IMG/VR virus record: IMGVR_UViG_3300045970_000591
Location: 1-64,000 of that record
DNA length: 64,000 bases
Direction: 5' to 3' (one strand)
Source of the DNA: a virus
The position numbers were made by a program, and so were the translations under genes. The notes under the pieces are model-generated. The model saw only the letters and a program-made list of their open reading frames with translations. It ran no database searches and was not told the origin of the DNA. Within the stretch, counting starts at the first letter, position 1, and the number at the start of each line of letters is the position of its first letter. This document shows positions 235 through 14,743 of this stretch, one piece after another.

Positions 235-753
235 CTGAGACTTTGTCGATCTTTTGTCTGTCTTTTGCGTATTCTCGTAGACGACATCTGTTTATGTCTG
301 TTAGTTGTAGAACCTTAGCGAGAGTGTTCTGGACGTACGGCCGTAGGTAAGGCTGCAACTGCATTTATTGTTAGATTTTACAGGAAACCACAGACTTTGT
401 CAACAACTTTTGTCAAACAAATGTAAGATCGCGTTCTTAGCTTTGTGCCTAAGTTTAAGGTATCTCTACAGTAGCGAGATACTGTGCTTGATCAGACAAA
501 GATCGTATTAGTTCGTGCAGGTGGTTCTGAAGAACGATAGATCTACATTAGCAAGAACAGTCTAAAGCATAGGGAAAAAGTTAAACATTAATAGCTTATG
601 TATGTGTTTTGCTTAGTCAAAACGCATAGTAAGTGCTTACTTACATACGCCTTTGAGCGCGTTCGCGTTTGGTCGACATGGGCGTGCGCCTAAACGAGCG
701 AGACCATTTTACATAAGCTCTCGCTTGGTCATTTTAGGACAAAGACTAGGGCA

Positions 754-817
754 AGCGTGAACTTAAAGTGCAACAAAGTGTAACACTGCACTAAATACAC
801 AAAAAATAGTTTATAAT
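754..817 (+). promoter_or_regulatory. 64-bp promoter cassette, copy 1 (TGCAACA/TGTAACA boxes, TATAAT -10)
   Basis: Identical to 4223-4286 and near-identical to 3200-3263; ends in TATAAT upstream of ORF 849. Confidence 0.8.
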
Positions 818-848
818 GTTTACTTAGCAACAAACAAAGTAGCAAAAA

Positions 849-1130
849 ATGCAAAAAGCAAACACACTGTTTTACAAAGTGCAAATGCAAAAAAACAACA
901 GCGCGTTGTTTATTGTGTTTAGCTTTGCGGAGCCCGTGCAGCAGCGCACAGCGCACAGCGTTGTAACGCACGCGAAAACGCTTACAAGCGCAAAGTTAGC
1001 GCAGCTTGTTGCCGTGCAAGCAAAGTTTGACAACGCAGCTGACACGCTCGATGTTAGCAGCACTGCAATGTGCAAGTTGTTGCAAAAAAACGACACTTAC
1101 GCAGCAGCACAGCAAGTCGCGTACTACTAA
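849..1130 (+). CDS. Hypothetical early protein, strongly depleted in GA/GG/TC/CC (93 aa, no G or W)
   Basis: ORF directly downstream of the promoter cassette; only a handful of TC/CC/GA/GG dinucleotides. Confidence 0.65.
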   Translation: MQKANTLFYKVQMQKNNSALFIVFSFAEPVQQRTAHSVVTHAKTLTSAKLAQLVAVQAKFDNAADTLDVSSTAMCKLLQKNDTYAAAQQVAYY

Positions 1131-1168
1131 CGCGCAGCAGTTGCAGCAGCAAGCAAGATGCTGCACTG

Positions 1169-1217
1169 TGTAACAAATGTAACAGTGCTTGCAAAAGCAC
1201 TGTTTCTGCGTTATAAT
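1169..1217 (+). promoter_or_regulatory. Sigma70-like promoter TTGCAA-17-TATAAT with two upstream TGTAACA boxes
   Basis: Boxes 1169-1175 and 1178-1184, -35 at 1189-1194, -10 at 1212-1217; ATG follows 5 nt later (leaderless). Confidence 0.75.
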
Positions 1218-1222
1218 ACACT

Positions 1223-1420
1223 ATGGTTACAAAAACATTCTCCTCCTTTACTGCATACATGCAGGCACTCTCGAAGTTAAAGGCTGCTGGATACATCCAC
1301 GTAAACGAGAGCTGGGAGGACAACCGGAAAACTGGCGGAAGTATGTTTGTTGCAACAACTCACGCAGGTTGTCTATTTATTGATGTGTGTATGCCCGAAA
1401 GTGCGCTTTCTGCGTTATAA
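1223..1420 (+). CDS. Hypothetical early protein (65 aa)
   Basis: ORF starts right after the promoter. Confidence 0.6.
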   Translation: MVTKTFSSFTAYMQALSKLKAAGYIHVNESWEDNRKTGGSMFVATTHAGCLFIDVCMPESALSAL

Positions 1421-1426
1421 TACATT

Positions 1427-1603
1427 ATGAACAAAGCACAAAAGATTGAGCGGCTTAAAGACATTTACAGGAAACTGTATGCTAACGAGCCCGCGGACAC
1501 ATACGACCTCGATGCTGCGGAAGAGTATTGGGCGAGTTTGAGCGAGGCACTGCTTGACATTGAGTTGGGTTTTGCAACACTTTATGACGCACTGGAAGGA
1601 TAA
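1427..1603 (+). CDS. Small acidic hypothetical protein (58 aa, MNKAQKIERL...YDALEG); not in the ORF track
   Basis: Translated by hand; TATAAT lies 5 nt upstream of the ATG (leaderless). Confidence 0.65.
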   Translation: MNKAQKIERLKDIYRKLYANEPADTYDLDAAEEYWASLSEALLDIELGFATLYDALEG

Positions 1604-1607
1604 GCAA

Positions 1608-1763
1608 ATGAGTAAACAACAACGCAACGCTAAGGTAAAGGAAGCACTCGCCTTGCTGGATAAGGCTGAGACATTGTACTGGGAGTTGCACGGCGATGCA
1701 GACGACGATGTACACAGCGAGTTTGAAGTTGTGCGTGAAGCATTGGAGGCAGAAGCAAAATGA
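1608..1763 (+). CDS. Small acidic helical hypothetical protein (51 aa, MSKQQRNAKV...)
   Basis: Start at ATG 1608 after the previous stop is more plausible than the track start 1554; ATGA overlap with the next gene. Confidence 0.65.
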   Translation: MSKQQRNAKVKEALALLDKAETLYWELHGDADDDVHSEFEVVREALEAEAK

Positions 1764-1957
1764 AAGAAAAACTCAAAACCTTGGAGAACCTGACCAGACT
1801 CCTCTATCAGGAACTCAAGATTGCAACATACGACACCACGCTCTGTGACAATGCCCACGCGCTCCTCAAAGAGGCATCAGTGGATGCAATCAACCTCCAG
1901 CGCAAGATTGAATCGGCGCGTTCCTGGCAAACCATAAAAGATGTAACAAAGGATTGA
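1760..1957 (+). CDS. Hypothetical protein (65 aa)
   Basis: ATGA-coupled ORF with amphipathic helical pattern. Confidence 0.65.
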   Translation: MKEKLKTLENLTRLLYQELKIATYDTTLCDNAHALLKEASVDAINLQRKIESARSWQTIKDVTKD

Positions 1958-1982
1958 CAACCCTGTTCCTTTGTTGTATAAT
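1942..1982 (+). promoter_or_regulatory. Consensus sigma70 promoter TTGACA-17-TATAAT with upstream TGTAACA box
   Basis: Box 1942-1948, -35 at 1954-1959, -10 at 1977-1982. Confidence 0.85.
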
Positions 1983-2008
1983 AAAGACTTAGCAACAAAG
2001 GAAACAAA

Positions 2009-2218
2009 ATGGAATACTTCATCTTTATTGTGTGTTTGGCGTTAATCGCTGCACCTGTCCTGTGTGTCTGGTTGTTCTACCGTCCGCTTACCCAGAAGCC
2101 TTCCGCAACCATTCAGCGTGCGGCAAAGAACATTATCAACCTTGCCAGCCAACTGGGCATGCCGGCAGCAGTTGACGCGAAGTGGAACCTGGTAGCTAAG
2201 GAGTTAGACGCAACTTAG
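2009..2218 (+). CDS. Small membrane-anchored protein (69 aa)
   Basis: AAGGA SD-like site; N-terminal hydrophobic stretch YFIFIVCLALIAAPVLCVWLFY. Confidence 0.7.
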   Translation: MEYFIFIVCLALIAAPVLCVWLFYRPLTQKPSATIQRAAKNIINLASQLGMPAAVDAKWNLVAKELDAT

Positions 2219-2226
2219 TCCTGGCA

Positions 2227-2260
2227 CACGCAGAGGCATTTAACCTATATGCCCTGCGTG
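2227..2260 (+). terminator. GC-rich hairpin after ORF 2009 (CACGCAG-AGGCAT / ATGCC-CTGCGTG)
   Basis: Inverted repeat is visible but there is no U-tract, so terminator function is uncertain. Confidence 0.35.
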
Positions 2261-2491
2261 ACAATCCTAATTAGGAAAACCAACCTAACCTGCACGCCTA
2301 AACTGCACAGAAAATTCTCCCAGATGGTTTTGGTTTTTTAGGTAGGAAATGTGCCTAAGCAGCAAGATTGAAAAGTTGCCTATAGGCCTATAGACGAGCA
2401 GGCGCTAAGGTAAGCGGCCTAGGGCTTGTTCGCGCTAATAATACCTAACCTAACGCACGCAGCTGGCACGACACGCATAAGCACAGGAATG

Positions 2492-2540
2492 TGTAACAGT
2501 GTGTAACAGTGCAGCTAACACAAAATATTTGCTGTATAAT
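2492..2540 (+). promoter_or_regulatory. Promoter with two TGTAACA boxes and TATAAT, no consensus -35
   Basis: Boxes 2492-2498 and 2502-2508; -10 at 2535-2540. Confidence 0.65.
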
Positions 2541-2570
2541 AAACACTTAGCAACAAAAAGGGTTAGCGAA

Positions 2571-2852
2571 ATGTTTGATGCAGCACATAAAGCAAACAAC
2601 GGTGTAATGGTGCAATACGTTGATATGGGCACGGAGTACACACATAACGGGCATACGATGCTGTTTGTTGGCGAACAGCAGAGCGGTGAAGTTGTTGTGG
2701 ACGGCGTGTACTACGCGGAGTATATGTACAACGACGAAAGCGATACAAACAGCTTGTACAACGACGAGCGTGGCGACGAAGCGTTTGCGACGATTGGTAA
2801 CACAGATGAAGCGTATGAAGCGTATGCGTTACAAGTGTTACAAGCACTGTAG
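2571..2852 (+). CDS. Highly acidic early protein (93 aa; 17 D/E versus 2 K/R); sense strand has no TC or CC
   Basis: ATG 2571 lies downstream of the promoter (track start 2499 lies within the promoter); residues counted by hand. Confidence 0.7.
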   Translation: MFDAAHKANNGVMVQYVDMGTEYTHNGHTMLFVGEQQSGEVVVDGVYYAEYMYNDESDTNSLYNDERGDEAFATIGNTDEAYEAYALQVLQAL

Positions 2853-2860
2853 CGTTTAGG

Positions 2861-2920
2861 CAACAGTTACAAACTGTTACACAAGTTACGTCTTGTTACA
2901 AGTTTTACAACTTGTTACAA
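2861..2920. repeat. Cluster of about six GTTAC(A)-type motifs
   Basis: caacagttac aaactgttac acaagttacg tcttgttaca agttttacaa cttgttacaa. Confidence 0.75.
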
Positions 2921-3076
2921 TTCGTGCGCGTGCAGCAGCTTCTTTAAAGTTCTGCAGCGCGAACGTCTTGCAGCTACTTTTATGGTTAAGCACGTCTGTG
3001 TAGCGCGGGTCGTCGTGCTACTTGCTTGCTTGTTGTTATGTATTAAGCGCGACAAGCTGTGTGTTTTATTTGTTTG

Positions 3077-3091
3077 CATAGTTGTATTATA
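3077..3091 (-). promoter_or_regulatory. Minus-strand TATAAT-acaact-ATG element facing gene 2571
   Basis: Same TATAATACAACTATG string as the + strand start of gene 4293. Confidence 0.55.
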
Positions 3092-3199
3092 TACCCAACA
3101 TCCTCTAGTCGCGCTGTTTGGGTTAGGATTTTTTATGCCTGCAGCGCGAAGCAATAAAAACAGCTCGCGCAACTTTTAACACAAAAGCTATTTAAAAAC

Positions 3200-3263
3200 A
3201 GCGTGAACTTAAAGTGTAACAATATGTAATACAGCACAAAATACACAAAAAATAGTTTATAAT
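3200..3263 (+). promoter_or_regulatory. 64-bp promoter cassette, copy 2 (diverged)
   Basis: Same length and ends as copies 1 and 3, with a few substitutions. Confidence 0.75.
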
Positions 3264-3315
3264 ACAAGCTACAGGCAAAAGCAATAACGCACAAGCTGTT
3301 AAAATGTAAAGCAAT

Positions 3316-3927
3316 ATGCACACATTAACATTAGCACAAGCGCAAAACGCAATAGCGTTGCACGCAAACAACACTGTTGTAACTGCACAACAAATACAAA
3401 ATATGCTGCAAAACGTAAGCGTTACGTTTGCACAAATTACTTACGTTACGCAAGTAGCGTTAGCAGCGCAGCACAAAGCGCAAAACATACAAAAAGTAAC
3501 AACTGCAAACGTAATACTGTGCAGCAACATTAAAGCACACACAAGCGTTTACGCAAACAAAGTAAAGCGTAGCGCAGCAGCTATTAGCAGCAACAATGCA
3601 CAAGCTGTAGCAGCGTTTACAGCGCAGCAAAACTACTTTACGCACACAGCAACGCATTGCATTGTGCAGCATACACAGCACGCAAACAAAATGTATTTGT
3701 ATGCTATTTACAACAACGCACAAAGCGTGTATATGCACAATAACGCTGTTGTAAGCAAACAACACGTTGCAGCATACTGCACAAAAAGCGCAGCAGCAAC
3801 ATTGTTGCAACAAAGCAACGTTGTTGTAAATAAAACACACAACATAGCGCACACTGTGCAAGTGCGTACTATTGCGTTAAGCAACATAGTAAGCATTAAA
3901 GCGCGTAAGCAGCTACTTACAGTGTAG
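3316..3927 (+). CDS. 203-aa early protein with no D, E, G, P or W
   Basis: Longest ORF of the block; preceded by the promoter cassette and followed by a terminator; the gene has no GA, GG, TC or CC. Confidence 0.8.
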   Translation: MHTLTLAQAQNAIALHANNTVVTAQQIQNMLQNVSVTFAQITYVTQVALAAQHKAQNIQKVTTANVILCSNIKAHTSVYANKVKRSAAAISSNNAQAVAAFTAQQNYFTHTATHCIVQHTQHANKMYLYAIYNNAQSVYMHNNAVVSKQHVAAYCTKSAAATLLQQSNVVVNKTHNIAHTVQVRTIALSNIVSIKARKQLLTV

Positions 3928-3964
3928 CAAATAAACAACTGTTGCAGCAATGCAACAGTGTGCA

Positions 3965-4000
3965 AGCGCAGCTAGTTCACGCTAGTTGCGCTATTTTTTT
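3965..4000 (+). terminator. Rho-independent terminator
   Basis: Stem AGCGCAGCTAG / CTAGTTGCGCT followed by a T7 tract. Confidence 0.85.
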
Positions 4001-4222
4001 AACTAAAACAGCGCGACCAAATATTGCACACAAATATGAGACCTTGTTTTATATTTTTAAATTTTAAAATTAAATAGCGCGGTCAAATTTACTTTTTGTC
4101 GTGCGTTTTTGGGGGCAAAAACCATCCTAAAAATGCACGGTGGTTCGCGCTACAACTTTTGAGGACACATGTTCTTTGCAGCGCGATACCCGTGCGTGCT
4201 GTGTTAGCTTGCGTGCAAAAGT

Positions 4223-4286
4223 AGCGTGAACTTAAAGTGCAACAAAGTGTAACACTGCACTAAATACACAAAAAATAGTTTATAAT
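4223..4286 (+). promoter_or_regulatory. 64-bp promoter cassette, copy 3
   Basis: Identical to 754-817; ATG 6 nt after TATAAT (leaderless). Confidence 0.8.
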
Positions 4287-4292
4287 ACAACT

Positions 4293-4619
4293 ATGCAAAA
4301 CACTACACAGCAAATAACTTATACGCAGCACTGCAAAGTAAAGCACAAAAAGCACTTTAGCATTGCACAACGCAACGCACGCAATGCTATGTATGCTGCA
4401 CTGTATAGCGCAGCACAGCAAGCAGTAGCGCAGCAAGTAGCGCAAGCACTGCAAGCACTGTATTTTAAGCAGCGCGTTAATATTAACTACAACGCAAAAA
4501 GCATTAGCGTGCAACTGCAAAACGCAACAGCAACGCAAGCAGTGCAGTATATTGCACGCACGCACAACGCAAGCATTAAGCAAACACAAAACAACATATT
4601 GTTACACTTGTTTGCATAA
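4293..4619 (+). CDS. 108-aa basic early protein with no D, E, G, P or W
   Basis: Leaderless ORF after the promoter cassette; the gene has no GA, GG, TC or CC. Confidence 0.75.
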   Translation: MQNTTQQITYTQHCKVKHKKHFSIAQRNARNAMYAALYSAAQQAVAQQVAQALQALYFKQRVNINYNAKSISVQLQNATATQAVQYIARTHNASIKQTQNNILLHLFA

Positions 4620-4630
4620 AGCAACAACTA

Positions 4631-4700
4631 CAAGTTGTAACAACTGTTGCAACTTGTTACAACTGTAACAACTTGTAACTGTAACATTTTGTAACAGTTC
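4631..4700. repeat. Cluster of about seven TGTAAC/GTTAC motifs
   Basis: caagttgtaa caactgttgc aacttgttac aactgtaaca acttgtaact gtaacatttt gtaacag. Confidence 0.75.
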
Positions 4701-4733
4701 GTGCGCGTTGTTGTATGCGTGCTACACTTTTGT

Positions 4734-4830
4734 GCGCGAACCCCTTGCAACATACAGCGTTGCGTGCTATAATAGTAGCGCGAACCCCTTGCAGCTTGTT
4801 GCTTGTTTGTTATAATAGTAGCGCGAACAT
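4734..4830 (+). promoter_or_regulatory. Tandem ~43-bp units GCGCGAACCCC-TTGCA(A/G)-16/17-TATAAT (two promoters plus a partial third)
   Basis: TTGCAA 4745-4750 / TATAAT 4768-4773; TTGCAG 4789-4794 / TATAAT 4811-4816. Confidence 0.65.
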
Positions 4831-4867
4831 CTTGTTGCTTACAGCAGCAGCGTATTGTATTTGTGTG

Positions 4868-4882
4868 CATAGTTGTATTATA
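4868..4882 (-). promoter_or_regulatory. Minus-strand TATAAT-acaact-ATG element facing gene 4293
   Basis: Same string as the element at 3077-3091. Confidence 0.55.
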
Positions 4883-4995
4883 CACTATATTTGTCTCTGC
4901 CGCGCAGCTTAGGGCTGAGAAATCATGTTCTTTGTAGCAAGGGGTTCGCGTAGGATGGTTATAAAATCCTAACCTAAACAGCGCGAACGCTCATT

Positions 4996-5044
4996 TGTAA
5001 CAGTTGTAACAGTGCTTGCACTTTAACAAAACTTGTGCTATAAT
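4996..5044 (+). promoter_or_regulatory. Promoter TTGCAC-17-TATAAT with two TGTAACA boxes and no ORF immediately downstream
   Basis: Boxes 4996-5002 and 5005-5011, -35 at 5016-5021, -10 at 5039-5044. Confidence 0.7.
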
Positions 5045-5248: not shown

Positions 5249-5485
5249 ATGTCTACCGATTCTTATTCATATCCACATTCCAGTCATTTCTATCAGACGC
5301 TAGTCAGGCGTTATAAAAATGTCACGAATGATATGATGACTGAATCCCGCAATATGAAGATATGGTTGATTGCTAATGTGGTAGATCATGAATATGGTTG
5401 TTATTCAAACGGATTACTTATGGAAGTAGTTTGTTTCAAGAACCCAAAAGACTTGGTAGCCTTCAAGTTAAAGTTTGGAGTATAG
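5249..5485 (+). CDS. FKLKFG-family paralogue 1
   Basis: Ends DLVAFKLKFGV. Confidence 0.8.
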   Translation: MSTDSYSYPHSSHFYQTLVRRYKNVTNDMMTESRNMKIWLIANVVDHEYGCYSNGLLMEVVCFKNPKDLVAFKLKFGV

Positions 5486-5486
5486 T

Positions 5487-5672
5487 ATGGATTGGCCTAT
5501 TACTGTTTACATACCATATGACAACAAAACACTCAGTGTATTAGCATGGATGCACGCATATGTTGGTCAGGTAGGTGTTGATTGGGATTACATGCATATT
5601 GATAACATAAACTATATATGCTTTTCCAATGAGTTGGATCGTATGACTTGTAAGTTAAAGTTTGGAGTATAG
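5487..5672 (+). CDS. FKLKFG-family paralogue 2
   Basis: ATG 5487 (track start is a TTG); ends TCKLKFGV. Confidence 0.8.
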   Translation: MDWPITVYIPYDNKTLSVLAWMHAYVGQVGVDWDYMHIDNINYICFSNELDRMTCKLKFGV

Positions 5673-5673
5673 T

Positions 5674-5859
5674 ATGGATTGGCCTATTATAGTTAACATA
5701 TCCTATACACTTAACGCAGCTGATATACTCGACTGGTTGGAAGAGTGTGTAGGTGAAATAGATATTAGTTGGGATTGGCAACATATTAATAATAGAAACT
5801 ATGTATGCTTTGCCAGTGAAGAAGATCTATTAGCTTGTAAGTTAAAGTTTGGTATATAA
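5674..5859 (+). CDS. FKLKFG-family paralogue 3
   Basis: ATG 5674; ends ACKLKFGI. Confidence 0.8.
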   Translation: MDWPIIVNISYTLNAADILDWLEECVGEIDISWDWQHINNRNYVCFASEEDLLACKLKFGI

Positions 5860-6044
5860 TGGAATACTTGTTATTTGTAGATATTAGTATAATGATAGAA
5901 GCATTTCCGTGGTTGTTGGATAATGTGGGACCACTGGATGTAGATTGGCAGTTAGAGGATGCGCCACCGAAGTTCAAGAAGATATTTATATACTTTAATA
6001 AGGGTGAGGATGTGGTAGCATTCAAGTTAAAGTTTGGATTATAA
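5859..6044 (+). CDS. FKLKFG-family paralogue 4
   Basis: Ends DVVAFKLKFGL. Confidence 0.8.
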   Translation: MEYLLFVDISIMIEAFPWLLDNVGPLDVDWQLEDAPPKFKKIFIYFNKGEDVVAFKLKFGL

Positions 6045-6097
6045 ACTTCAAGGTATGGATTTTCAAGACAGTAAGAAATTTTTTACAGGAATTTTTC

Positions 6098-6304
6098 ATG
6101 GTTAGTAACATGGGCACCTTATATGTTAGTATACCCACTGGGCGGGCCGAGGGCTGTTCGTTTTGGGCTAAGGAATATTGTCCTAGTTATATTACTTGTG
6201 ATTTACACATGGATGGATATAATACACATGATTCTACCAGGATTGATTACTTCTTTGGTGACGCGGAAGATGCTGTAGCGTTTAAACTAAAGTTTAGTGT
6301 ATGA
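6098..6304 (+). CDS. FKLKFG-family paralogue 5
   Basis: Ends DAVAFKLKFSV. Confidence 0.8.
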   Translation: MVSNMGTLYVSIPTGRAEGCSFWAKEYCPSYITCDLHMDGYNTHDSTRIDYFFGDAEDAVAFKLKFSV

Positions 6305-6483
6305 TACAAGTAACAATAAAAGAAAGAGTTACCTGGGTTGAACAGATAAGTTGGATTACAACAAACTGTACTGGTGCGAAAGACATGACAAACTGGACGA
6401 TGTGGTCTTTAGGTTTAGATGATATTCTTTATATGATGGAAGAGAATGATGCAGTGTATTTTAGACTAAAGTTTGGTGTATGA
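6301..6483 (+). CDS. FKLKFG-family paralogue 6
   Basis: Ends DAVYFRLKFGV. Confidence 0.8.
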   Translation: MIQVTIKERVTWVEQISWITTNCTGAKDMTNWTMWSLGLDDILYMMEENDAVYFRLKFGV

Positions 6484-6650
6484 TACAAGTAAATCTAGGT
6501 CATGGTGTGTCGAGATATTTTGAAATACTCGACTGGTTGAATAGTGAAGATATAGAGTACACGATTACAGGAAGTGATATTGATTGGCCATGTATTTTGG
6601 AAATGGAAGAGGTAGACGCTGTGGCATTAAAGATAAAGTTTGGATTATAG
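6480..6650 (+). CDS. FKLKFG-family paralogue 7 (56 aa, not in the track)
   Basis: Translated by hand: MIQVNLGHG...DAVALKIKFGL. Confidence 0.8.
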   Translation: MIQVNLGHGVSRYFEILDWLNSEDIEYTITGSDIDWPCILEMEEVDAVALKIKFGL

Positions 6651-6651
6651 T

Positions 6652-6885
6652 ATGGTTATTGTTAATGTCCCACTAACGGAAAATATACAGTATGATGATA
6701 TGTGTGAATGGATAGAAAATAATATGGATTTAGTTTCTGTCTTGGCTGGGCCTTCTATAGTCACATATTACATTAATGGTAAGCCAGTGCCAGGGCGTGG
6801 CTGTAGTGGGAAGTCTATCTTTAATGGATTATTATTTGGTGATGAACAAGATGCAGTGTACTTTAAACTGAAGTTTGGAATATGA
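6652..6885 (+). CDS. FKLKFG-family paralogue 8
   Basis: ATG 6652; ends DAVYFKLKFGI. Confidence 0.8.
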   Translation: MVIVNVPLTENIQYDDMCEWIENNMDLVSVLAGPSIVTYYINGKPVPGRGCSGKSIFNGLLFGDEQDAVYFKLKFGI

Positions 6886-7079
6886 CATACTTACATTTTA
6901 TGACAGGATGGGATGCTTATGTGGAAGCTGCGACGATAGATCGGAATATTATGTATAGCGTGTGGGTTGAACAGTTTGGAGCAAAAGTTGTTGATGTAGG
7001 GCTATTAAGACCTGTCGCAATGTTAGAGTTTCTAAACAAAGGCGATGCAGTGTATTTTAAACTAAAGTGTAGAACATGA
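6882..7079 (+). CDS. FKLKFG-family paralogue 9
   Basis: Ends DAVYFKLKCRT. Confidence 0.8.
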   Translation: MTYLHFMTGWDAYVEAATIDRNIMYSVWVEQFGAKVVDVGLLRPVAMLEFLNKGDAVYFKLKCRT

Positions 7080-7270
7080 CATACTTACCTTATATGACTG
7101 GATTTAATGATTACCACGGTGAAATGGAAAGAACAAGTGGTAAGTTCCTTGCATATAGAGACTGGGTTAAACAGTACGGTGGAGAAGTTGTTACGACGCA
7201 AACACTTGCTAGACTAGAGTTTGAAGATGAAGGAGACGCAGTGTATTTTAAACTAAAGTGTAGAACATGA
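7076..7270 (+). CDS. FKLKFG-family paralogue 10
   Basis: Ends DAVYFKLKCRT. Confidence 0.8.
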   Translation: MTYLPYMTGFNDYHGEMERTSGKFLAYRDWVKQYGGEVVTTQTLARLEFEDEGDAVYFKLKCRT

Positions 7271-7488
7271 CATACTTACCTTATATGACTGGCCATAATG
7301 CTTATGCATCTATAAACGGAGGCCCGCTGACCGTCGCAGGCAGAGGATGGTTCCACCGAGATTGTTGGGTATGGTTAGATCTACGTGGAGGCAAAGTTAT
7401 TAATACAGATCTACCTATATCAGAATGGAAGATAGAGTTTAAAGATGATGCCGATGCAGTGTATTTTAAACTAAAGTATAGAACATGA
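7267..7488 (+). CDS. FKLKFG-family paralogue 11
   Basis: Ends DAVYFKLKYRT. Confidence 0.8.
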   Translation: MTYLPYMTGHNAYASINGGPLTVAGRGWFHRDCWVWLDLRGGKVINTDLPISEWKIEFKDDADAVYFKLKYRT

Positions 7489-7697
7489 CATACTTACCGT
7501 ATCCATATGGTTGGAGTGATTATAGTAAGGAGTATCCTATGGCTGTGGTATCGGGAGGCGGCAAGCTATGTTACTGGCAATGGGTTGAACAATATGGAGG
7601 AAAGGTTGTTGACCAGGAATTACATGTTGTTAAATGGAGATTAGAGTTTAAGAACGATGAAGATGCGGTAGTGTTTAAACTAAAGTTTGGAAAATGA
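7485..7697 (+). CDS. FKLKFG-family paralogue 12
   Basis: Ends DAVVFKLKFGK. Confidence 0.8.
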   Translation: MTYLPYPYGWSDYSKEYPMAVVSGGGKLCYWQWVEQYGGKVVDQELHVVKWRLEFKNDEDAVVFKLKFGK

Positions 7698-7906
7698 AAC
7701 ACATTTCTTTTAAACAGTCTGCCCTATATGGTAGAGTTTCTGAGTTTATAAGATGGAAAGAAGAATGTGGTGGTACAGTGGCTTATGCTTATGCATATAC
7801 TGAATATACCGGATATGTTTTTGATCCACCCGCCGGTACATTTGATGGGTTAGTATTTTCTAATGACGAAGACGCAGTAGCATTTAGATTAAAGTTTGGA
7901 ATATGA
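7694..7906 (+). CDS. FKLKFG-family paralogue 13
   Basis: Ends DAVAFRLKFGI. Confidence 0.8.
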   Translation: MKHISFKQSALYGRVSEFIRWKEECGGTVAYAYAYTEYTGYVFDPPAGTFDGLVFSNDEDAVAFRLKFGI

Positions 7907-8091
7907 CAGATATTATTTTTACACATGATAGGCTTTATGGTAAAGTTTCTGCCGTAGCAAACTGGATAGCAACCATTGAAAATAAGGTATATGCTGTCTA
8001 TGAGACACGAGGTAACAAGAGTATATTTAATGGATTACGATTTGTGGATGAAGCTGATGCAGTAGCATTTAGATTAAAGTTCGGAATATGA
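7903..8091 (+). CDS. FKLKFG-family paralogue 14
   Basis: Ends DAVAFRLKFGI. Confidence 0.8.
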   Translation: MTDIIFTHDRLYGKVSAVANWIATIENKVYAVYETRGNKSIFNGLRFVDEADAVAFRLKFGI

Positions 8092-8270
8092 CAAAAGTAA
8101 AATGGCCGATGAATGATAAGGTACCCGATTCTGTAGTATGCGATTGGTTGGAAGATCTAGTAGAACAATCTCCCGGCGAGTTGGTGTTTACATATGCTAC
8201 TGCCGAAACAACCTTATGCTTTGTAAGAGAAGTAGACGCAGTAGCATTTAGATTAAAGTTCGGAATATGA
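8088..8270 (+). CDS. FKLKFG-family paralogue 15
   Basis: Ends DAVAFRLKFGI. Confidence 0.8.
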   Translation: MTKVKWPMNDKVPDSVVCDWLEDLVEQSPGELVFTYATAETTLCFVREVDAVAFRLKFGI

Positions 8271-8482
8271 GTACCATAGTAGAGATAGATTTACGAATCG
8301 ATAAATCTAAAGAATTAAATGGATTCGGCGTGTTAGATGTAGACCTCTACCTTAACATATTGGATTGGCTAATAAGGTATAAAATAGAATATACCCGAGT
8401 ACAAAATCGTGTTGCATGGGCGCCTGCATTTGAATTGGAAGATATTGACGCAGTAGCATTTAGATTAAAGTTTGGATTATGA
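8267..8482 (+). CDS. FKLKFG-family paralogue 16
   Basis: Ends DAVAFRLKFGL. Confidence 0.8.
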   Translation: MSTIVEIDLRIDKSKELNGFGVLDVDLYLNILDWLIRYKIEYTRVQNRVAWAPAFELEDIDAVAFRLKFGL

Positions 8483-8661
8483 CATACTTATTATATATGA
8501 CCGGAATGAAGGGCTATCTTAGAGATCCTAAACACTACGTAGAGTGGCTTGAGGAATATGGGGCAAGAATTATTGATACACATTTATCTATAATACAATG
8601 GCGGATACAGTTTAAGGATGCGGCAGATGCAGTAGCATTTAGATTAAAGTTTGGAATATGA
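8479..8661 (+). CDS. FKLKFG-family paralogue 17
   Basis: Ends DAVAFRLKFGI; N-terminus MTYL.YMTG as in members 9-12. Confidence 0.8.
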   Translation: MTYLLYMTGMKGYLRDPKHYVEWLEEYGARIIDTHLSIIQWRIQFKDAADAVAFRLKFGI

Positions 8662-8828
8662 CAATAATAAACTTAGGTCCGGGGTATGTGGACAGCATGA
8701 CCTTTACTGATATATTGGTATGGTTAACAATGAACGATTTATATTATGAATTTAAAAATACGTCGGATTGCATTATATCGGTAGACGACGAAGATGCAGT
8801 TGCACTAAAAATAAAGTTTGGATTATGA
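8658..8828 (+). CDS. FKLKFG-family paralogue 18 (56 aa, not in the track)
   Basis: Translated by hand: MTIINLGPG...DAVALKIKFGL. Confidence 0.8.
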   Translation: MTIINLGPGYVDSMTFTDILVWLTMNDLYYEFKNTSDCIISVDDEDAVALKIKFGL

Positions 8829-9025
8829 TACCTATTATAGTTAATGTTAGAACAAACATTGTCTGGTACGTCTTAGCCGATATAGCCGAGTGGGTGGTTA
8901 ATAATCCGGATATTGTATCTGTGTGCCCTAATGATGGATCCCTGCCCGTAACATCTATCTTTAACGGATTATTATTTGCTGATGAACAAGATGCAGTGTA
9001 CTTTAAACTAAAGTTCGGATTATAG
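8825..9025 (+). CDS. FKLKFG-family paralogue 19
   Basis: ATGA-coupled start at 8825; ends SIFNGLLFADEQDAVYFKLKFGL (close to member 8). Confidence 0.8.
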   Translation: MIPIIVNVRTNIVWYVLADIAEWVVNNPDIVSVCPNDGSLPVTSIFNGLLFADEQDAVYFKLKFGL

Positions 9026-11664: not shown

Positions 11665-11910
11665 ATGATACATTCAACCTTAAACTTATCGCAAGACGTT
11701 AAAACATATCCTCTTAGGATGTTGGTATGGGAGTACCCGGAAGTATATAAGGCGGCAGAAGAATGGCTAACCAAGTATTGTACGATTGGGTATTTTAACT
11801 ATATACACGGTTTGTCACACATCAACGGTACCCCGTATGCAAGAGCAGTTAGTTTCGTTAATGAAACTGACTACTTGGTATTCAAACTTAAATTCCCGGA
11901 ACTATGTTGA
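11665..11910 (+). CDS. FKLKFG-family paralogue 20
   Basis: Ends DYLVFKLKFPELC. Confidence 0.8.
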   Translation: MIHSTLNLSQDVKTYPLRMLVWEYPEVYKAAEEWLTKYCTIGYFNYIHGLSHINGTPYARAVSFVNETDYLVFKLKFPELC

Positions 11911-12110
11911 ATATACGAGCTACCATAGATGATTATAAAATATCACTATGCTATAAACACCAGCTTGGCCCCGATAGGTGTGCTATCGTCGAAGAGTGGT
12001 TGGCAGAAAATGTAGGCGTTGAGAATGTGGATTGGCATTGGGAAAGATTCACTATTGCATTAGATAGTAAAGAAGATATGGTTGCTCTTAAACTAAAGTT
12101 TGGATTATGA
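11904..12110 (+). CDS. FKLKFG-family paralogue 21
   Basis: Ends DMVALKLKFGL. Confidence 0.8.
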   Translation: MLNIRATIDDYKISLCYKHQLGPDRCAIVEEWLAENVGVENVDWHWERFTIALDSKEDMVALKLKFGL

Positions 12111-12277
12111 TTTTAAATATTGGAACACTTAAGGTCTCTGAGTGGGCGGCAGCTCAAAAATGGATGACAGATAATAATATTATGTCGTGGGAAGAATTCG
12201 ATAAATGGGATTGGCGATTTAATATTGAGATGAGTGAAGAAGATGCAATAGTATTTAAACTAAAGGTTGAACTATGA
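12107..12277 (+). CDS. FKLKFG-family paralogue 22 (56 aa, not in the track)
   Basis: Translated by hand: MILNIGTLK...DAIVFKLKVEL. Confidence 0.8.
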   Translation: MILNIGTLKVSEWAAAQKWMTDNNIMSWEEFDKWDWRFNIEMSEEDAIVFKLKVEL

Positions 12278-12504
12278 TTTTTCCTATCGCGCCGTATTGG
12301 CTATCTATCGTAGATCATTATTATAAGCAGGGCGGCCGCGAGGATAAGACTATCTGGAAAATGTTGGAAGAAGATTATTATGCTAAACGGTCACATCGAT
12401 ATAAAGGCGACACACATCGTAACTATTTAACAATCGACGAGCCTGAAGATTTGGTTGCATTCAAACTAAAATTCGCAGAACAACGATGTGACTTAAATAT
12501 ATGA
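12274..12504 (+). CDS. FKLKFG-family paralogue 23
   Basis: DLVAFKLKFAEQ near the C-terminus. Confidence 0.8.
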   Translation: MIFPIAPYWLSIVDHYYKQGGREDKTIWKMLEEDYYAKRSHRYKGDTHRNYLTIDEPEDLVAFKLKFAEQRCDLNI

Positions 12505-12704
12505 TTATAGCAGTAGAGCCATATTGGTTGTCTATCTTAGCATATTATTATGATGTTAGTCTTATTAGCCGCGGTATATCTATTTGGGATATGTTAGAGA
12601 AAGAATACTATGCTAAAAAAGTTCTTAGAAAAGATGCGATTCATTTAGAGTTTAAAGAGAAAGAGGATTTAGTTGCATTTATTTTAAAGTTTGCTAAAGA
12701 ATAA
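12501..12704 (+). CDS. FKLKFG-family paralogue 24
   Basis: Ends DLVAFILKFAKE; N-terminal PYWLSI shared with member 23. Confidence 0.8.
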   Translation: MIIAVEPYWLSILAYYYDVSLISRGISIWDMLEKEYYAKKVLRKDAIHLEFKEKEDLVAFILKFAKE

Positions 12705-12712
12705 ACAGATAT

Positions 12713-12919
12713 ATGATTTATGTTCCTATACTTCAGCCTACTGATAACAACATAGTAGGGGCCATCTCTCGATTTTCTGAATATGCTAAGTGGTGTGATG
12801 AGGTGGCTGGTGTGGAAGATACAGATTGGCGGTGGATGCGTGGAGATCTGTATGGCAAGGGTATATACTTTAAAGACGAGCAGGTAGCCGTAATGTTTAA
12901 ACTAAAGTTTCCTGTATGA
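12713..12919 (+). CDS. FKLKFG-family paralogue 25
   Basis: Ends VAVMFKLKFPV. Confidence 0.8.
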   Translation: MIYVPILQPTDNNIVGAISRFSEYAKWCDEVAGVEDTDWRWMRGDLYGKGIYFKDEQVAVMFKLKFPV

Positions 12920-13161
12920 TAACTATTCCGTATTTAGATAGGGCCGGTGTCTACGCCGGTGGTGAATACTATAGAAAGCACATACGAGGCTATTCCTGCC
13001 GTGAGTCAATACCGTCTTATCAGGAATGGATTAAAGAACAAGGCGGCAAGTTTGTGTCGGGATATAATAAAGAAACAAGGATAGGACACGAAAGCTGGTC
13101 GGCGTATATCGAGTTCGAGAGTGAAGAAGACGCGGTCGTGTTTAAGCTAAAATATGTATAG
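12916..13161 (+). CDS. FKLKFG-family paralogue 26
   Basis: Ends DAVVFKLKYV. Confidence 0.8.
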   Translation: MITIPYLDRAGVYAGGEYYRKHIRGYSCRESIPSYQEWIKEQGGKFVSGYNKETRIGHESWSAYIEFESEEDAVVFKLKYV

Positions 13162-13321
13162 TATATCTGTTCCTTTTAGCAGCAATGCGGGATTCTACGT
13201 AGAGCTTGCTACTTGGCTGATTGAGCGAGAGGTAGCATGTAGGTGGAACGATAACCAGTATAAGATTATATTTGCTAATGAGGAAGACGCAGTAGCATTT
13301 AGATTGAAGTTTGGATTATGA
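13154..13321 (+). CDS. FKLKFG-family paralogue 27 (55 aa, not in the track)
   Basis: Translated by hand: MYSISVPF...DAVAFRLKFGL. Confidence 0.8.
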   Translation: MYSISVPFSSNAGFYVELATWLIEREVACRWNDNQYKIIFANEEDAVAFRLKFGL

Positions 13322-13560
13322 CATTAGTTGAATATGACCATAAAAAGATAAGGCAATATTTTATAAAGAATATTATGCCTAACTATCCTGCATGGGATCC
13401 GGACAAAGACGGAGAAGAACTACCTATGGTAAAATGGTTGAGAGATATAGGTGCTAAGTTTGTTGTTAAAGAAGTAAATGAGATGGGTGAAGCAACAAGC
13501 CATCAACTACAGTTCGAAGATGAGGCAGATGCAGTAGTATTTAAGTTAATGATTGGATGA
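13318..13560 (+). CDS. FKLKFG-family paralogue 28
   Basis: Ends DAVVFKLMIG. Confidence 0.8.
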   Translation: MTLVEYDHKKIRQYFIKNIMPNYPAWDPDKDGEELPMVKWLRDIGAKFVVKEVNEMGEATSHQLQFEDEADAVVFKLMIG

Positions 13561-13847
13561 ATATGAGTTTAACACCAACGACAGAGGAGCTCGACTCTTT
13601 TATTAAACAGTTTAATATACAGAACTTTTCTGTCGATATACCACACGAAGATTTTAGTTCTCACGGGTATTCCTATGCTGTTAATACTGGTAATGCAAGA
13701 GTCAAGATGGCAGCAACTATGCCAGATTTCTATCACCTCGTTAATATAGTAAGTCAAAGAAACGAAGAACAGATGATAAGAGATAGATCAGAAACAGTTC
13801 GTAAGGCGTACGAAGAATATGTGATTTTACTGAAACTATCGAGATGA
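13557..13847 (+). CDS. Hypothetical protein inside the array lacking the full motif (96 aa)
   Basis: ATGA-coupled on both sides; ends YEEYVILLKLSR. Confidence 0.7.
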   Translation: MNMSLTPTTEELDSFIKQFNIQNFSVDIPHEDFSSHGYSYAVNTGNARVKMAATMPDFYHLVNIVSQRNEEQMIRDRSETVRKAYEEYVILLKLSR

Positions 13848-14290
13848 TTTCAAAATATTATCTTCAGTTTTACAACGATGATAGAACCTACTATGCACTG
13901 ACGCAGGTAGGCAAATGGCCGTTCAGCATTATACAAGAGGCACACAAGGCTTGGGTGGAAGACCATACAGGGAATATTAGAGAGATTAAGAACAGAGACG
14001 GGCCACACAACGGAAATATAACTCAGGAAGAGTATAAGACGCTTAAAGAAATAAGTCAGAGGATAGATATGATTTCAATAATACAGCGAACAAACGGAAC
14101 AGTTCAGTTGAACTTTCCATACAGTAAATATGAGAATAATATACCCGATGGTATGGTAGAATGGTTGATTGAAAATACAGAACAGAAATGGACATACGGT
14201 AAATGGCAAATGGGTGATGAGGCTAAACGGATTGGAATAGAAATAACACAAGAAGATTTGGTAGCACTTAAACTAAAGTTTTCATTATGA
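13844..14290 (+). CDS. FKLKFG-family paralogue 29 (148 aa, with extra N-terminal region)
   Basis: Ends DLVALKLKFSL. Confidence 0.8.
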   Translation: MISKYYLQFYNDDRTYYALTQVGKWPFSIIQEAHKAWVEDHTGNIREIKNRDGPHNGNITQEEYKTLKEISQRIDMISIIQRTNGTVQLNFPYSKYENNIPDGMVEWLIENTEQKWTYGKWQMGDEAKRIGIEITQEDLVALKLKFSL

Positions 14291-14535
14291 AATATTATCT
14301 GAAGTTGGCTGAACACCTATTTATGTGTCCTCAGTGCTGGCAAGGGTTTGTTAAATCACTCGATCACGTAGAGTCGCCCGAGTTGGACTTCGACGGTGGT
14401 TATTCAACAGCCTTTATTAATAAACACCTTACTCCGCACCACGCAGAATTTACTGACCTGGTTGAAGATATAAGTGCTTATGTGACATTCGAAACAGAAG
14501 CAGATGCTATAGTATTTAAGTTAAAGTATGGTTGA
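14287..14535 (+). CDS. FKLKFG-family paralogue 30
   Basis: Ends DAIVFKLKYG. Confidence 0.8.
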   Translation: MKYYLKLAEHLFMCPQCWQGFVKSLDHVESPELDFDGGYSTAFINKHLTPHHAEFTDLVEDISAYVTFETEADAIVFKLKYG

Positions 14536-14743
14536 TATTCCTATCTCTCGACATAACATTCACACTGTGCATCAGTGGTGTGAAAAGCATATATCGCCGA
14601 GGTCGTATTGGATGCATAACAAGATTGGTGGGCCGGGGTGGATATTACATTCTATGCCCCGTAATGAACAGGACTGGCGTGTTGCGTTTAATGATGACCA
14701 TGATGCTATTGTTTTTAAGCTATCAGTCCTGTTAGATGATTAG
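14528..14743 (+). CDS. FKLKFG-family paralogue 31
   Basis: DAIVFKLSV near the C-terminus. Confidence 0.75.
   Translation: MVDIPISRHNIHTVHQWCEKHISPRSYWMHNKIGGPGWILHSMPRNEQDWRVAFNDDHDAIVFKLSVLLDD

What the first reader, a model, noticed from the sequence alone, without database searches (positions are those of the whole stretch)
2450..2891. Strand-asymmetric version of the rule: sense strand TC/CC-free but GA/GG-rich
Seen: 2450-2891 on the + strand has no TC or CC, yet gene 2571-2852 is full of GA and GG (17 D/E, several G). So when the protein needs acidic residues only one half of the rule is kept. Inference: the primary constraint is no YC on the non-template strand, equivalent to no GR on the template strand. 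This fits either a bulky modified G blocking RNA polymerase on the template, or a TC/CC deaminase acting on the exposed non-template strand. Genes at 1427-1763 show a weaker form of the same bias.
Basis: partly seen in the sequence, partly recalled or inferred. Interest (0 to 1): 0.72.

Follow-up and report, generated by a model that had tools for sequence, protein, structure and literature searches.

The report
Sense-strand TC/CC ban in phage genes
A small early gene of an uncultured giant phage, together with its promoter and tail, has been rewritten by selection so that its coding strand holds no TC or CC while GA and GG stay normal; related phages show the same one-strand ban following gene direction, so something tied to transcription reads these two-letter steps on one DNA strand.

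Summary
Observation confirmed. Window 2450-2891 holds 0 TC/CC (35 expected at the genome rate). Gene 2571-2852 has 0 against 9.8±2.8 in codon-resampled controls (0 of 20,000), while its GA+GG count (35) equals expectation (35.9; minimum possible 27).

The pattern recurs in relatives. In 24 of 24 one-sided tracts from related metagenomic phages, the strand free of TC/CC carries the better reading frame, including two minus-strand genes. Among 65 homologs of the neighbouring 203-aa gene, 23 lack all four dinucleotides, 3 lack only sense TC/CC, and none lacks only GA/GG.

The mechanism is unresolved. Complementary steps co-vary (TC with GA, CC with GG), which points to DNA rather than RNA. The closest cultured relative, PA5oct, carries modified G at GA/GG. 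My best guess (0.4) is that the template strand of a few immediate-early genes is kept free of the phage's own G modification. PA5oct itself shows no such purge, so a simple polymerase block is unlikely. Rivals are a non-template-strand deaminase and Rho or RNA-targeting enzymes.

This scan has already noted the two-strand version on other genomes. I found no published description.

The parts
2450..2891 (+). Tract with no TC or CC on the + (sense) strand and a normal GA/GG content. It covers one whole cassette, from promoter to 3' hairpins.
   Evidence: 442 nt, YC 0 against 35 expected, GR 43 against 44 expected.
2488..2557 (+). Promoter module shared with three other cassettes (765, 3211, 4234). 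TATAAT lies at 2535-2540, with GTGTAACA repeats upstream.
   Evidence: repeat family D1 (71-81% identity); sequence read.
2557..2562 (+). Shine-Dalgarno-like AAAGGG, with its last G 8 nt before the start codon. This is possible only because GG is allowed on this strand.
   Evidence: Sequence read.
2571..2852 (+). Gene for a 93-aa acidic protein (pI 4.05; 17 D/E, 8 G, no P or W) of unknown function. The predicted fold is a beta sheet plus a C-terminal helix.
   Evidence: Five metagenomic homologs. AlphaFold2 pLDDT 88. No Pfam or PHROG match. No convincing fold match: best Z 6.4, BLIP-like, within noise.
2853..2918 (+). 3' untranslated region of GTTACA/TGTAAC repeats that fold into hairpins. The YC-free run continues to 2891.
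   Evidence: D3, D9; fold -45.8 kcal/mol, z -3.5.
2919..2963 (.). Inverted-repeat element TTCGTGCGCG...GCGCGAAC on the right side of the cassette. Like elements bracket the other cassettes (2429, 3144, 4144, 4698, 4734, 4778, 4821, 4981).
3166..3977 (+). Neighbouring cassette with the two-strand form of the rule (no TC, CC, GA or GG from 3275). It holds gene 3316-3927, a 203-aa protein lacking D, E, G, P and W, and terminator 3965-4002.
   Evidence: It is a real coding gene: differences from the 78%-identical homolog fall 36/32/79 by codon position. More than 260 homologs. pLDDT 90.
4191..4699 (+). Second two-strand cassette. Gene 4293-4619 (108 aa) starts 7 nt after TATAAT and is probably leaderless.
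730..1130 (+). Cassette with the same promoter module and a partial two-strand purge (760-929 fully free). Gene 849-1130.
   Evidence: YC 5 against 15.5; GR 7 against 13.9.
1427..1763 (+). Two small acidic genes (1427-1603, 1608-1763) with a marginal lack of sense YC.
   Evidence: 4 against 7.8 (P=0.06) and 2 against 5.4 (P=0.08).
1760..2218 (+). Two genes of the same island (1760-1957, 2009-2218) that are not purged and are in fact enriched in sense YC. The second has a perfect consensus promoter at 1954-1982.
   Evidence: (25 against 9.1; 24 against 15.4).

Best explanation
The tract is one complete early-promoter cassette (promoter, SD, 93-aa acidic protein, 3' hairpins) of a PA5oct-like giant myovirus.

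Shown: selection keeps its sense strand absolutely free of TC and CC, so its template strand is free of GA and GG. Sense-strand GA/GG is left alone.

Shown: this is the one-strand form of a rule whose two-strand form bans all four dinucleotides in neighbouring cassettes. The one-strand form always spares the template strand. It can occur without the two-strand form, but never the reverse.

Inferred: the thing being avoided is a DNA duplex step, GA·TC or GG·CC, and it costs most on the strand that RNA polymerase reads. The most likely identity is the target motif of this phage group's own guanine hypermodification, reported as 'GA and/or GG' for PA5oct. A handful of immediate-early genes, probably counter-defence genes, would be kept free of modified G on the template strand. 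Host sigma-70 RNA polymerase could then read them from promoter to terminator on the incoming virion DNA, whatever happens at modified G elsewhere.

PA5oct's early genes are read despite template GR. The hazard is therefore more likely a lesion, nick or bound protein that a host enzyme makes at modified G (a glycosylase or a modification-dependent nuclease) than the modified base itself. Alternatively, this lineage may carry a bulkier modification. Proteins that need D, E or G keep only the template-strand half of the rule. Proteins that can do without them go to the two-strand form.
For: 1. Selection, not chance or composition: (0 of 20,000 resamples). Ser is coded only by AGC, and C-ending codons occur only as AAC, TAC, GAC, GGC and AGC. 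Across four one-sided genes TC+CC is 2 against 44 expected, AC and GC are raised, and CT and TT are unchanged.

2. The rule is maintained through divergence. The 78%-identical homolog of 3316-3927 differs at 147 bases without one violation. The homolog of gene 2571-2852 in L003 (9083-9358) also has YC 0.

3. The ban follows the sense strand. L001 has a 1009-nt YC-free, GR-rich tract with two + genes that ends 15 nt after their terminator, and a GR-free, YC-containing tract over a minus-strand gene. In 24 of 24 one-sided tracts the better reading frame is on the YC-free strand.

4. There is a hierarchy. Of 65 homologs, 23 are two-strand, 3 are sense-YC-only and 0 are sense-GR-only.

5. The level is DNA. 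Controlling for GC and the other dinucleotides, complementary steps co-vary (TC~GA 0.60, CC~GG 0.64), more than same-strand partners (TC~CC 0.40, GA~GG 0.18).

6. The purge is limited to transcription units. Spacers between cassettes carry 9-10 such dinucleotides per 100 nt, and the rest of the 123-kb contig is normal.

7. An exact zero over 0.4-1.4 kb, bought at the price of conserved D, E, G and P residues, implies a cost per site.

8. Motif match. [quoted passage not shown] PTPS hits were confirmed in PA5oct and in a complete 364-kb relative. PA5oct depends on host RNA polymerase with TTGAC/TATAAT promoters (PMC7318152). The window's major capsid protein is 76% identical to PA5oct's.
Against: - PA5oct, the only relative with a measured modification, has no purged genes (longest four-free run 217 nt). 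Its early terminal-repeat genes are YC-enriched (observed/expected 1.22-1.29), yet they are transcribed at 5 min (PMC7318152).
- A complete 364-kb relative with a PTPS gene has no purged tract at all.
- No modification gene was found on this contig. It is only 36% of a genome, so this is uninformative.
- The model does not explain why the purge starts 70-100 nt upstream of TATAAT with the same strand bias. Tandem upstream -10-like elements may account for this.
- It does not explain why the non-template half of the rule is all or nothing.
- The co-variation test ignores shared ancestry.
Confidence: 0.4

Rival explanations
1. An enzyme that acts on single-stranded DNA at TC/CC attacks the non-template strand exposed in transcription bubbles. 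Candidates are an APOBEC-like cytosine deaminase or another base-modifying defence enzyme of the host. The most heavily transcribed early cassettes have lost its targets, first on the exposed strand and in some genes on both.
For: - It predicts the same asymmetry and hierarchy.
- It predicts the same complementary co-variation.
- The link to transcription units is natural.
- A per-site cost is plausible.
- TC and CC are classical deaminase contexts (general knowledge of APOBEC3 and DddA-type enzymes, not tested here).
Against: - There is no mutational footprint. CT and TT are at expectation, while AC and GC are raised, and Ser was moved from TCN to AGC, which needs several non-C-to-T changes.
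- Cassettes in the same island with equal or better promoters are YC-enriched (1760-2218).
- There is no YC depletion in the rest of the genome, although replication also exposes single strands.
- I found no anti-phage ssDNA cytosine deaminase with this context in the literature searched.
- DarT needs TNT, which is not avoided here.
Confidence: 0.15
2. The constraint is on the RNA. Transcripts without YC dinucleotides offer no ligand to the primary binding sites of termination factor Rho, so they cannot be terminated before the phage has neutralised Rho. Alternatively they escape a dinucleotide-specific RNA-modifying or RNA-cleaving defence enzyme. The extra ban on GA/GG in other cassettes would come from a second RNA-level agent, such as a CmdT-like ADP-ribosyltransferase that modifies GA in mRNA.
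For: - Rho's primary site binds 5'-YC, exactly the banned pair (established structural knowledge; reviewed in PMC12360218 and PMC6144790, found but not read).
- The ban is on the sense strand and runs to the terminator.
- CmdT modifies GA in single-stranded RNA and blocks translation (bioRxiv 10.1101/2024.02.24.581662).
- The neighbouring 203-aa protein has an Sm-like barrel whose top structural match is the Rho inhibitor YaeO/Rof (Z 6.2, within noise).
Against: - Rho needs several YC in a stretch, so an exact zero over 1 kb is not expected.
- Rho gives no reason to ban GA/GG. That ban would in fact make antisense RNA Rho-proof.
- Two independent RNA agents would not be expected to ban exactly complementary sets (about 1 chance in 120).
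- Complementary steps co-vary more than same-strand partners.
- CmdT does not act on GG.
- The purge includes 70-100 nt upstream of the main -10.
- There are no convergent promoters behind two-strand cassettes.
Confidence: 0.15
3. The tract is an accident of amino-acid content, GC content or recent import from a genome of odd composition.
For: The protein has no Pro and few Ser, which lowers the expected YC count (expected count is only 9.8 in the gene).
Against: - 0 of 20,000 codon-resampled controls reach zero.
- The non-coding flanks are also YC-free (0 against 9.6 expected upstream).
- The same state is kept in diverged homologs and in many unrelated genes of related phages.
Confidence: 0.01

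Closest known systems
Motif-specific guanine hypermodification of phage DNA: PA5oct (modified G at GA and/or GG), iggy dPreQ0 at GA, CAjan preQ0 at GA and GGC
   Same: The banned template-strand steps GA and GG are the reported modification contexts (PMC12191111, PMC10484667, PMC7544227). The window's phage is a PA5oct relative (capsid 76% identical).
   Different: Those papers describe where the base is placed, not regions that avoid the motif. I found no mention of motif-free transcription units. PA5oct itself shows almost no purge. No modification gene has been seen on this partial contig.
Restriction-site or PAM avoidance in phage genomes (for example few restriction sites in first-entering DNA of T5 and T7; general knowledge)
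   Same: Short sequence words are removed by selection from DNA that acts early in infection.
   Different: Classical avoidance is symmetric on the two strands, concerns 4-8-bp words, and spares protein sequence. Here the words are dinucleotides and the ban is on one strand that follows gene direction. It is confined to promoter-to-terminator units while the spacers are full of the words, and proteins are rewritten.
Rho utilisation sites (YC-rich RNA) and their absence in Rho-resistant transcripts
   Same: The banned pair on the RNA is exactly Rho's YC ligand.
   Different: Known Rho evasion works through antiterminators or inhibitors (N, Q, Psu, Rof), not through total recoding. It also does not explain the complementary GA/GG ban next door.
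CmdTAC: ADP-ribosylation of GA in mRNA
   Same: A defence enzyme with dinucleotide specificity whose every site is harmful. Its authors judged escape by site loss implausible.
   Different: Gene 2571-2852 is full of GA (21 in 282 nt), so CmdT-type attack cannot be what shapes this tract. GG and TC/CC are not CmdT targets.
Transcription-linked strand asymmetries and template-strand lesions that stop RNA polymerase (transcription-coupled repair; T4 Alc, which stops polymerase on unmodified C-DNA; base J as a stop signal in kinetoplastids; all general knowledge)
   Same: A base state matters more on the strand that the polymerase reads.
   Different: None of these is known to have produced motif-free genes.

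Membership tests
Phage genomes with DpdA/7-deazaguanine-type motif-specific G modification | Genome encodes a DNA transglycosylase (TGT/DpdA-like) and preQ0-pathway enzymes (QueC, QueD/PTPS, QueE, FolE) | tested here: inconclusive
   There are no TGT, QueC or PTPS hits on the contig, but it is only 36% of a genome. PTPS was found in PA5oct (2 hits) and in a complete 364-kb relative. TGT was found in none of them.
Phage genomes with DpdA/7-deazaguanine-type motif-specific G modification | Virion DNA carries modified G in a defined context (GA, GG or GGC) | not testable with these tools
   This is known only for PA5oct, from restriction patterns (PMC12191111). No raw reads or virion DNA exist for this phage. 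Only assembled contigs were found.
Classical restriction-site or PAM avoidance | The motif is depleted on both strands alike | tested here: not met
   Tract 2450-2891 has YC 0 but GR 43 (44 expected). GR in the gene is 35 against a possible minimum of 27.
Classical restriction-site or PAM avoidance | Depletion covers the exposed DNA as a whole, non-coding DNA included | tested here: not met
   Spacers between cassettes carry 9-10 banned dinucleotides per 100 nt.
Rho-resistant (rut-less) transcripts | RNA lacks YC dimers over the transcribed region | tested here: met
   There are 0 YC from upstream of the promoter to 39 nt past the stop codon.
Rho-resistant (rut-less) transcripts | The constraint is on the RNA only, with no matching constraint on the complementary words | tested here: not met
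   Sister cassettes and 23 of 65 homologs also ban GA/GG. Complementary steps co-vary.
Targets of a TC/CC-specific single-strand DNA deaminase | Mutational footprint: loss of YC with a gain of YT | tested here: not met
   CT is 45 against 42.8 and TT is 78 against 79.8. AC and GC are raised instead.
Targets of a TC/CC-specific single-strand DNA deaminase | All strongly transcribed units are affected | tested here: not met
   Genes 1760-1957 and 2009-2218 are YC-enriched, and the second has a 12/12 consensus promoter.
CmdT-type GA-specific mRNA modification escape | mRNA lacks GA | tested here: not met
   Gene 2571-2852 has 21 GA, equal to expectation.

The most novel reading that the evidence does not exclude
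The phage's own GA/GG-specific guanine modification doubles as a strand-specific code for gene expression on the incoming genome. Genes whose template strand is motif-free are the only ones readable at once. Unpurged cassettes with equally good promoters wait for replication. The inverted-repeat elements between cassettes, each carrying one isolated GA per strand, act as modification-dependent stops in both directions. This would be a timing and insulation mechanism written in dinucleotides, and it would have forced natural proteins into 15-letter and proline-free alphabets.
Probability: 0.12. Interest if true: 0.92.

Novelty: categorically new. Interest (0 to 1): 0.8.

Why it matters
The one-strand form is the most informative clue so far to a striking and apparently undescribed phenomenon: whole transcription units of giant freshwater phages, proteins included, rewritten to exclude two or four dinucleotides. 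It shows three things.

- The pressure is coupled to transcription.
- The pressure is per site.
- It acts first on the template strand (as GR), which is the same as acting on the sense strand (as YC).

This narrows the agent to a few testable classes: modified or attacked G on the template, a single-strand DNA enzyme on the non-template strand, or an RNA reader.

If the agent is the phage's own G modification, this would be the first case of a virus sparing chosen genes from its own DNA modification. It would give a purely computational way to read modification motifs and immediate-early counter-defence genes from metagenomes.

It also provides natural, well-folded proteins (pLDDT 88-90) built without Pro, or without D, E, G, P and W. 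These are of interest for protein evolution and design.

Tried and rejected
- **Nearest phage records.** blastn and tblastn of the island and of genes 2571-2852 and 3316-3927 against 50,697 GenBank phage records gave no match.
- **Protein families.** Pfam and PHROGs gave nothing credible for ten island proteins. The ESM Atlas gave nothing usable. A profile search of PDB sequences gave nothing.
- **Fold searches.** Foldseek against PDB gave no match for either model. VIA wide gave only noise-level Z values: 6.4 BLIP-like for the 93-aa protein, and 6.2 YaeO/Sm-like for the 203-aa protein.
- I therefore could not test whether purged lineages carry modification genes.
- **Sequencing runs.** No RNA holder was listed. 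Laying four pond and wetland DNA runs gave contigs only, with no strand or expression information.
- **Anti-END1.** tblastn found no homolog of PA5oct anti-END1 (gp52) in this contig or in three relatives. PA5oct gp52 itself is not purged.
- **Both strands transcribed.** The idea that two-strand cassettes are transcribed on both strands is not supported. Reverse-oriented TATAAT occurs 0.06 times per unit downstream, against 0.23 background, and promoter scans show nothing.
- **DarT.** Rejected, because its motif requires TNT, which is not avoided.
- **Codon-level causes.** tRNA-level or codon-level causes are rejected because codon junctions are avoided too (within-gene permutation).
- **My own error.** In some searches the second small gene was analysed one base out of frame (1609 instead of 1608). 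This was corrected.
- **A malformed query.** The word search of earlier findings was rejected for having too many words.

Full report
**What the window is.** The window is the first 64 kb of a 123,382-bp IMG/VR virus record that CheckV rates as 36% complete. It encodes T4-type portal, capsid, baseplate and tail-fibre proteins. Its major capsid protein is 76% identical to that of Pseudomonas jumbo phage PA5oct. The first 5 kb form an island of short cassettes, each with a strong sigma-70-type promoter, one or a few small genes and hairpins. Four cassettes share a 70-nt promoter module, and inverted-repeat elements (TTCG[C/T]GC...GCGCGAA) separate them.

**The observation.** Region 2450-2891 has no TC or CC on the + strand, and the coordinates are exact. 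The genome-wide rate predicts 35. The longest YC-free run in Markov simulations of the whole contig was 170 nt.

I ran it. Keeping the protein of 2571-2852 and redrawing synonymous codons from the contig's own usage gives 9.8±2.8 YC, and none of 20,000 draws reaches zero. Permuting the gene's own synonymous codons still gives 1.9 (P=0.03), so codon junctions are also policed. The 121-nt upstream flank is YC-free as well (9.6 expected).

GA+GG on the same strand is 35 in the gene. That equals the expected 35.9 and lies well above the 27 that synonymous choice could reach. One half of the rule is absolute and the other half is simply absent. The protein has 17 D/E, 8 G, no P or W, and pI 4.05.

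The 'weaker form' in 1427-1763 is marginal (P=0.06 and 0.08). Two further genes of the island (1760-1957, 2009-2218) are YC-enriched.

**It is a real, maintained feature.** The only runs of 80 nt or more without all four dinucleotides in 123 kb are 760-929, 3275-3977 and 4229-4699. Outside the island, sense-strand YC and GR are at expectation.

Gene 3316-3927 encodes a 203-aa protein without D, E, G, P or W. It has more than 260 metagenomic homologs of the same length. Against a 78%-identical homolog (locus L001) the 147 base differences fall 36/32/79 by codon position, which is the pattern of a coding gene under purifying selection. Neither copy has a single banned dinucleotide. More distant homologs keep up to about 28 D/E/G/P residues, so the purge is derived and graded.

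Both the 203-aa protein and the 93-aa protein of this finding fold confidently in AlphaFold2 (pLDDT 90 and 88). Neither has a recognisable family or a convincing fold match.

**The asymmetry follows the sense strand.** The related contig behind L001 holds a 1009-nt tract with no YC but normal GR. It carries two acidic + strand genes with AGGAG ribosome sites, and it ends 15 nt after their intrinsic terminator. Next to it lies a 342-nt tract with no GR but normal YC, over a minus-strand gene that has its own promoter and ribosome site.

A metagenome scan with a profile of the 203-aa family returned 78 loci. I scored reading frames with an amino-acid composition score that leaves out every residue fixed by the rule. 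In all 24 one-sided tracts, counting the window's own tract and the two in L001, the better frame lies on the YC-free strand. This includes a second minus-strand case, L069. Further one-sided genes with ribosome sites occur in L003 and L004, and one of them is a homolog of gene 2571-2852.

Among 65 homologs of the 203-aa gene:
- 23 have both classes at 1 per 100 nt or fewer;
- 3 have YC at 1 or fewer with GR at 4 or more (L106, L108, L111);
- none shows the reverse;
- 25 are unpurged.

All one-sided genes examined encode acidic proteins (pI 4.0-4.9), and the two-strand ones encode basic proteins (pI about 10).

**What kind of agent.** Four properties constrain it.

- It is tied to transcription units. 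Spacers between cassettes hold 9-10 banned dinucleotides per 100 nt, although non-coding DNA would be the cheapest to purge.
- It costs per site. The count is exactly zero over 0.4-1.4 kb, bought with replacements of conserved residues.
- It is selection, not mutation bias. TC+CC is 2 against 44 expected in four one-sided genes, while CT and TT are unchanged and AC and GC are raised. Ser is coded only by AGC.
- The two banned sets are exact reverse complements. Across the 65 homologs the complementary steps co-vary after controlling for GC and the other dinucleotides (TC~GA 0.60, CC~GG 0.64). Same-strand partners co-vary less (0.40, 0.18) and cross pairs negatively.

The fourth property points to duplex steps in DNA rather than to two RNA-level agents. 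The caveat is that this test ignores shared ancestry.

**Candidate mechanisms.** A note from an earlier follow-up on another genome led me to a preprint (PMC12191111). [quoted passage not shown] The authors read this as modified G in GA and/or GG, and they note that the phage has QueE-like and PTPS genes. I confirmed PTPS hits in PA5oct and in a complete 364-kb relative. PA5oct depends on host RNA polymerase and TTGAC/TATAAT promoters, with early transcription at 5 min (PMC7318152). Motif-specific G modification is also established for iggy (GA) and CAjan (GA, GGC). Those papers do not mention motif-free regions.

The match between 'GA/GG on the template' and the modification motif of the nearest cultured relative makes avoidance of the phage's own modified G my leading explanation.

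PA5oct itself contradicts the simplest version. It has no purged genes; its longest four-free run is 217 nt, directly upstream of its tRNA cluster. Its early terminal-repeat genes are YC-enriched (observed/expected 1.22-1.29). The complete 364-kb relative has no purged tract at all.

If modification is the cause, the hazard is therefore probably not the modified base as such. It is more likely what a host enzyme does at it, such as excision, nicking or binding by modification-dependent defences like the END nucleases of the same preprint. Alternatively this lineage may carry a different, bulkier modification. That reading would also fit the patchy distribution of the purge among close relatives. 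It is inference, not shown.

**Rivals.**

- A TC/CC-specific single-strand DNA enzyme on the exposed non-template strand predicts the same asymmetry and co-variation. It lacks a mutational footprint, does not explain unpurged neighbours with perfect promoters, and has no known example in phage defence. DarT does not fit, because its TNT motif is not avoided.
- Rho is attractive because its primary site binds exactly YC. It needs several YC per site, however, and it gives no reason for the complementary ban. The top structural match of the 203-aa protein to the Rho inhibitor YaeO (Z 6.2) is within noise.
- CmdT modifies GA in mRNA, but this tract is full of GA.
- I found no sign that two-strand cassettes are transcribed from both sides.

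**What remains unexplained.**

- The purge begins 70-100 nt upstream of the TATAAT box in every cassette, with the same strand bias. Three one-sided promoter regions have 0 sense YC and about 11 sense GR (my own counts from the sequences, against roughly 19 YC expected at the genome rate). Upstream TGnTACAAT-like -10 elements may mean that transcription starts earlier, but no start-site data exist.
- It is not clear why the non-template half of the rule is all or nothing.
- The function of the proteins is unknown.

**Novelty.** Seven full-text searches found no description of dinucleotide-free transcription units or of a strand-specific ban. This scan has already noted the two-strand form on this and other genomes. 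The one-strand form, its orientation rule and its hierarchy are new here.

Noticed in passing
window 700-5000: Contigs from four pond and wetland metagenomes join the island's cassettes in other orders. The joints lie at the shared promoter modules (for example 834 to 2493, 2002 to 2535, 2557 to 3194). The cassettes appear to be shuffled by recombination at the promoter repeats.
   Followed up: partly
window 2429, 2921, 2957, 3144, 4144, 4698, 4734, 4778, 4821, 4981; L001 3200-5900: Inverted-repeat elements bracket every cassette: TTCG[C/T]GC...GCGCGAA in the window, and GTTCGCACGTGC-N20-GCACGTGCGAAC arrays in L001. In L001 the purged tracts begin and end exactly at these arms. In otherwise motif-poor spacers the arms carry isolated GA/TC steps.
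   Followed up: partly
window 4281-4295, 1211-1225, 1415-1429; minus strand 3091-3077 and 4882-4868: TATAAT is followed after 6-7 nt by ATG, which suggests leaderless mRNAs. Two reverse-oriented copies of the module 'TATAATACAACTATGCA' face leftwards behind cassettes 2450-2891 and 4191-4699.
   Followed up: partly
window 3316-3927: The 203-aa protein written without D, E, G, P or W folds with pLDDT 90 into an Sm-like beta barrel with two insertions. The best structural matches are YaeO/Rof (a Rho inhibitor), Hfq/Sm and WYL domains, all at noise-level Z (6.2 or below).
   Followed up: partly
window 1760-2218: Two island genes are enriched in sense TC/CC (25 against 9 and 24 against 15 expected) and use C-ending codons such as CTC, ACC and TCC. 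This is the opposite dialect to their neighbours. Gene 2009-2218 has a perfect TTGACA-17-TATAAT promoter.
   Followed up: no
L106 1-604, L108 3236-3812, L111 8040-8606: In a distant branch (about 46% identity) the 203-aa gene family itself is in the one-strand state: no sense TC/CC, 19-22 D/E/G residues kept and no Pro.
   Followed up: yes
PA5oct NC_071039.1 267341-267557 (L011 30558-30774): The longest stretch of PA5oct without TC, CC, GA or GG (217 nt, against at most 81 in simulations) ends one base before its first tRNA gene. Gene gp099 (264942-265154) has sense YC 1 against 9.6, which is not significant after correction for 443 genes.
   Followed up: partly
L075 232-2672; L071 1-2418: The longest one-sided stretches seen are about 2.4 kb each, with only 3 sense TC/CC (L075) and a single short interruption (L071), while GA+GG runs at 8-14 per 100 nt.
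   Followed up: partly
window 5249-9025 and 11665-14743: A tandem family of small proteins ends in DAVxF(K/R)LKFG. Their sense YC is only slightly low (observed/expected 0.87-0.94), so they do not share the rule.
   Followed up: partly
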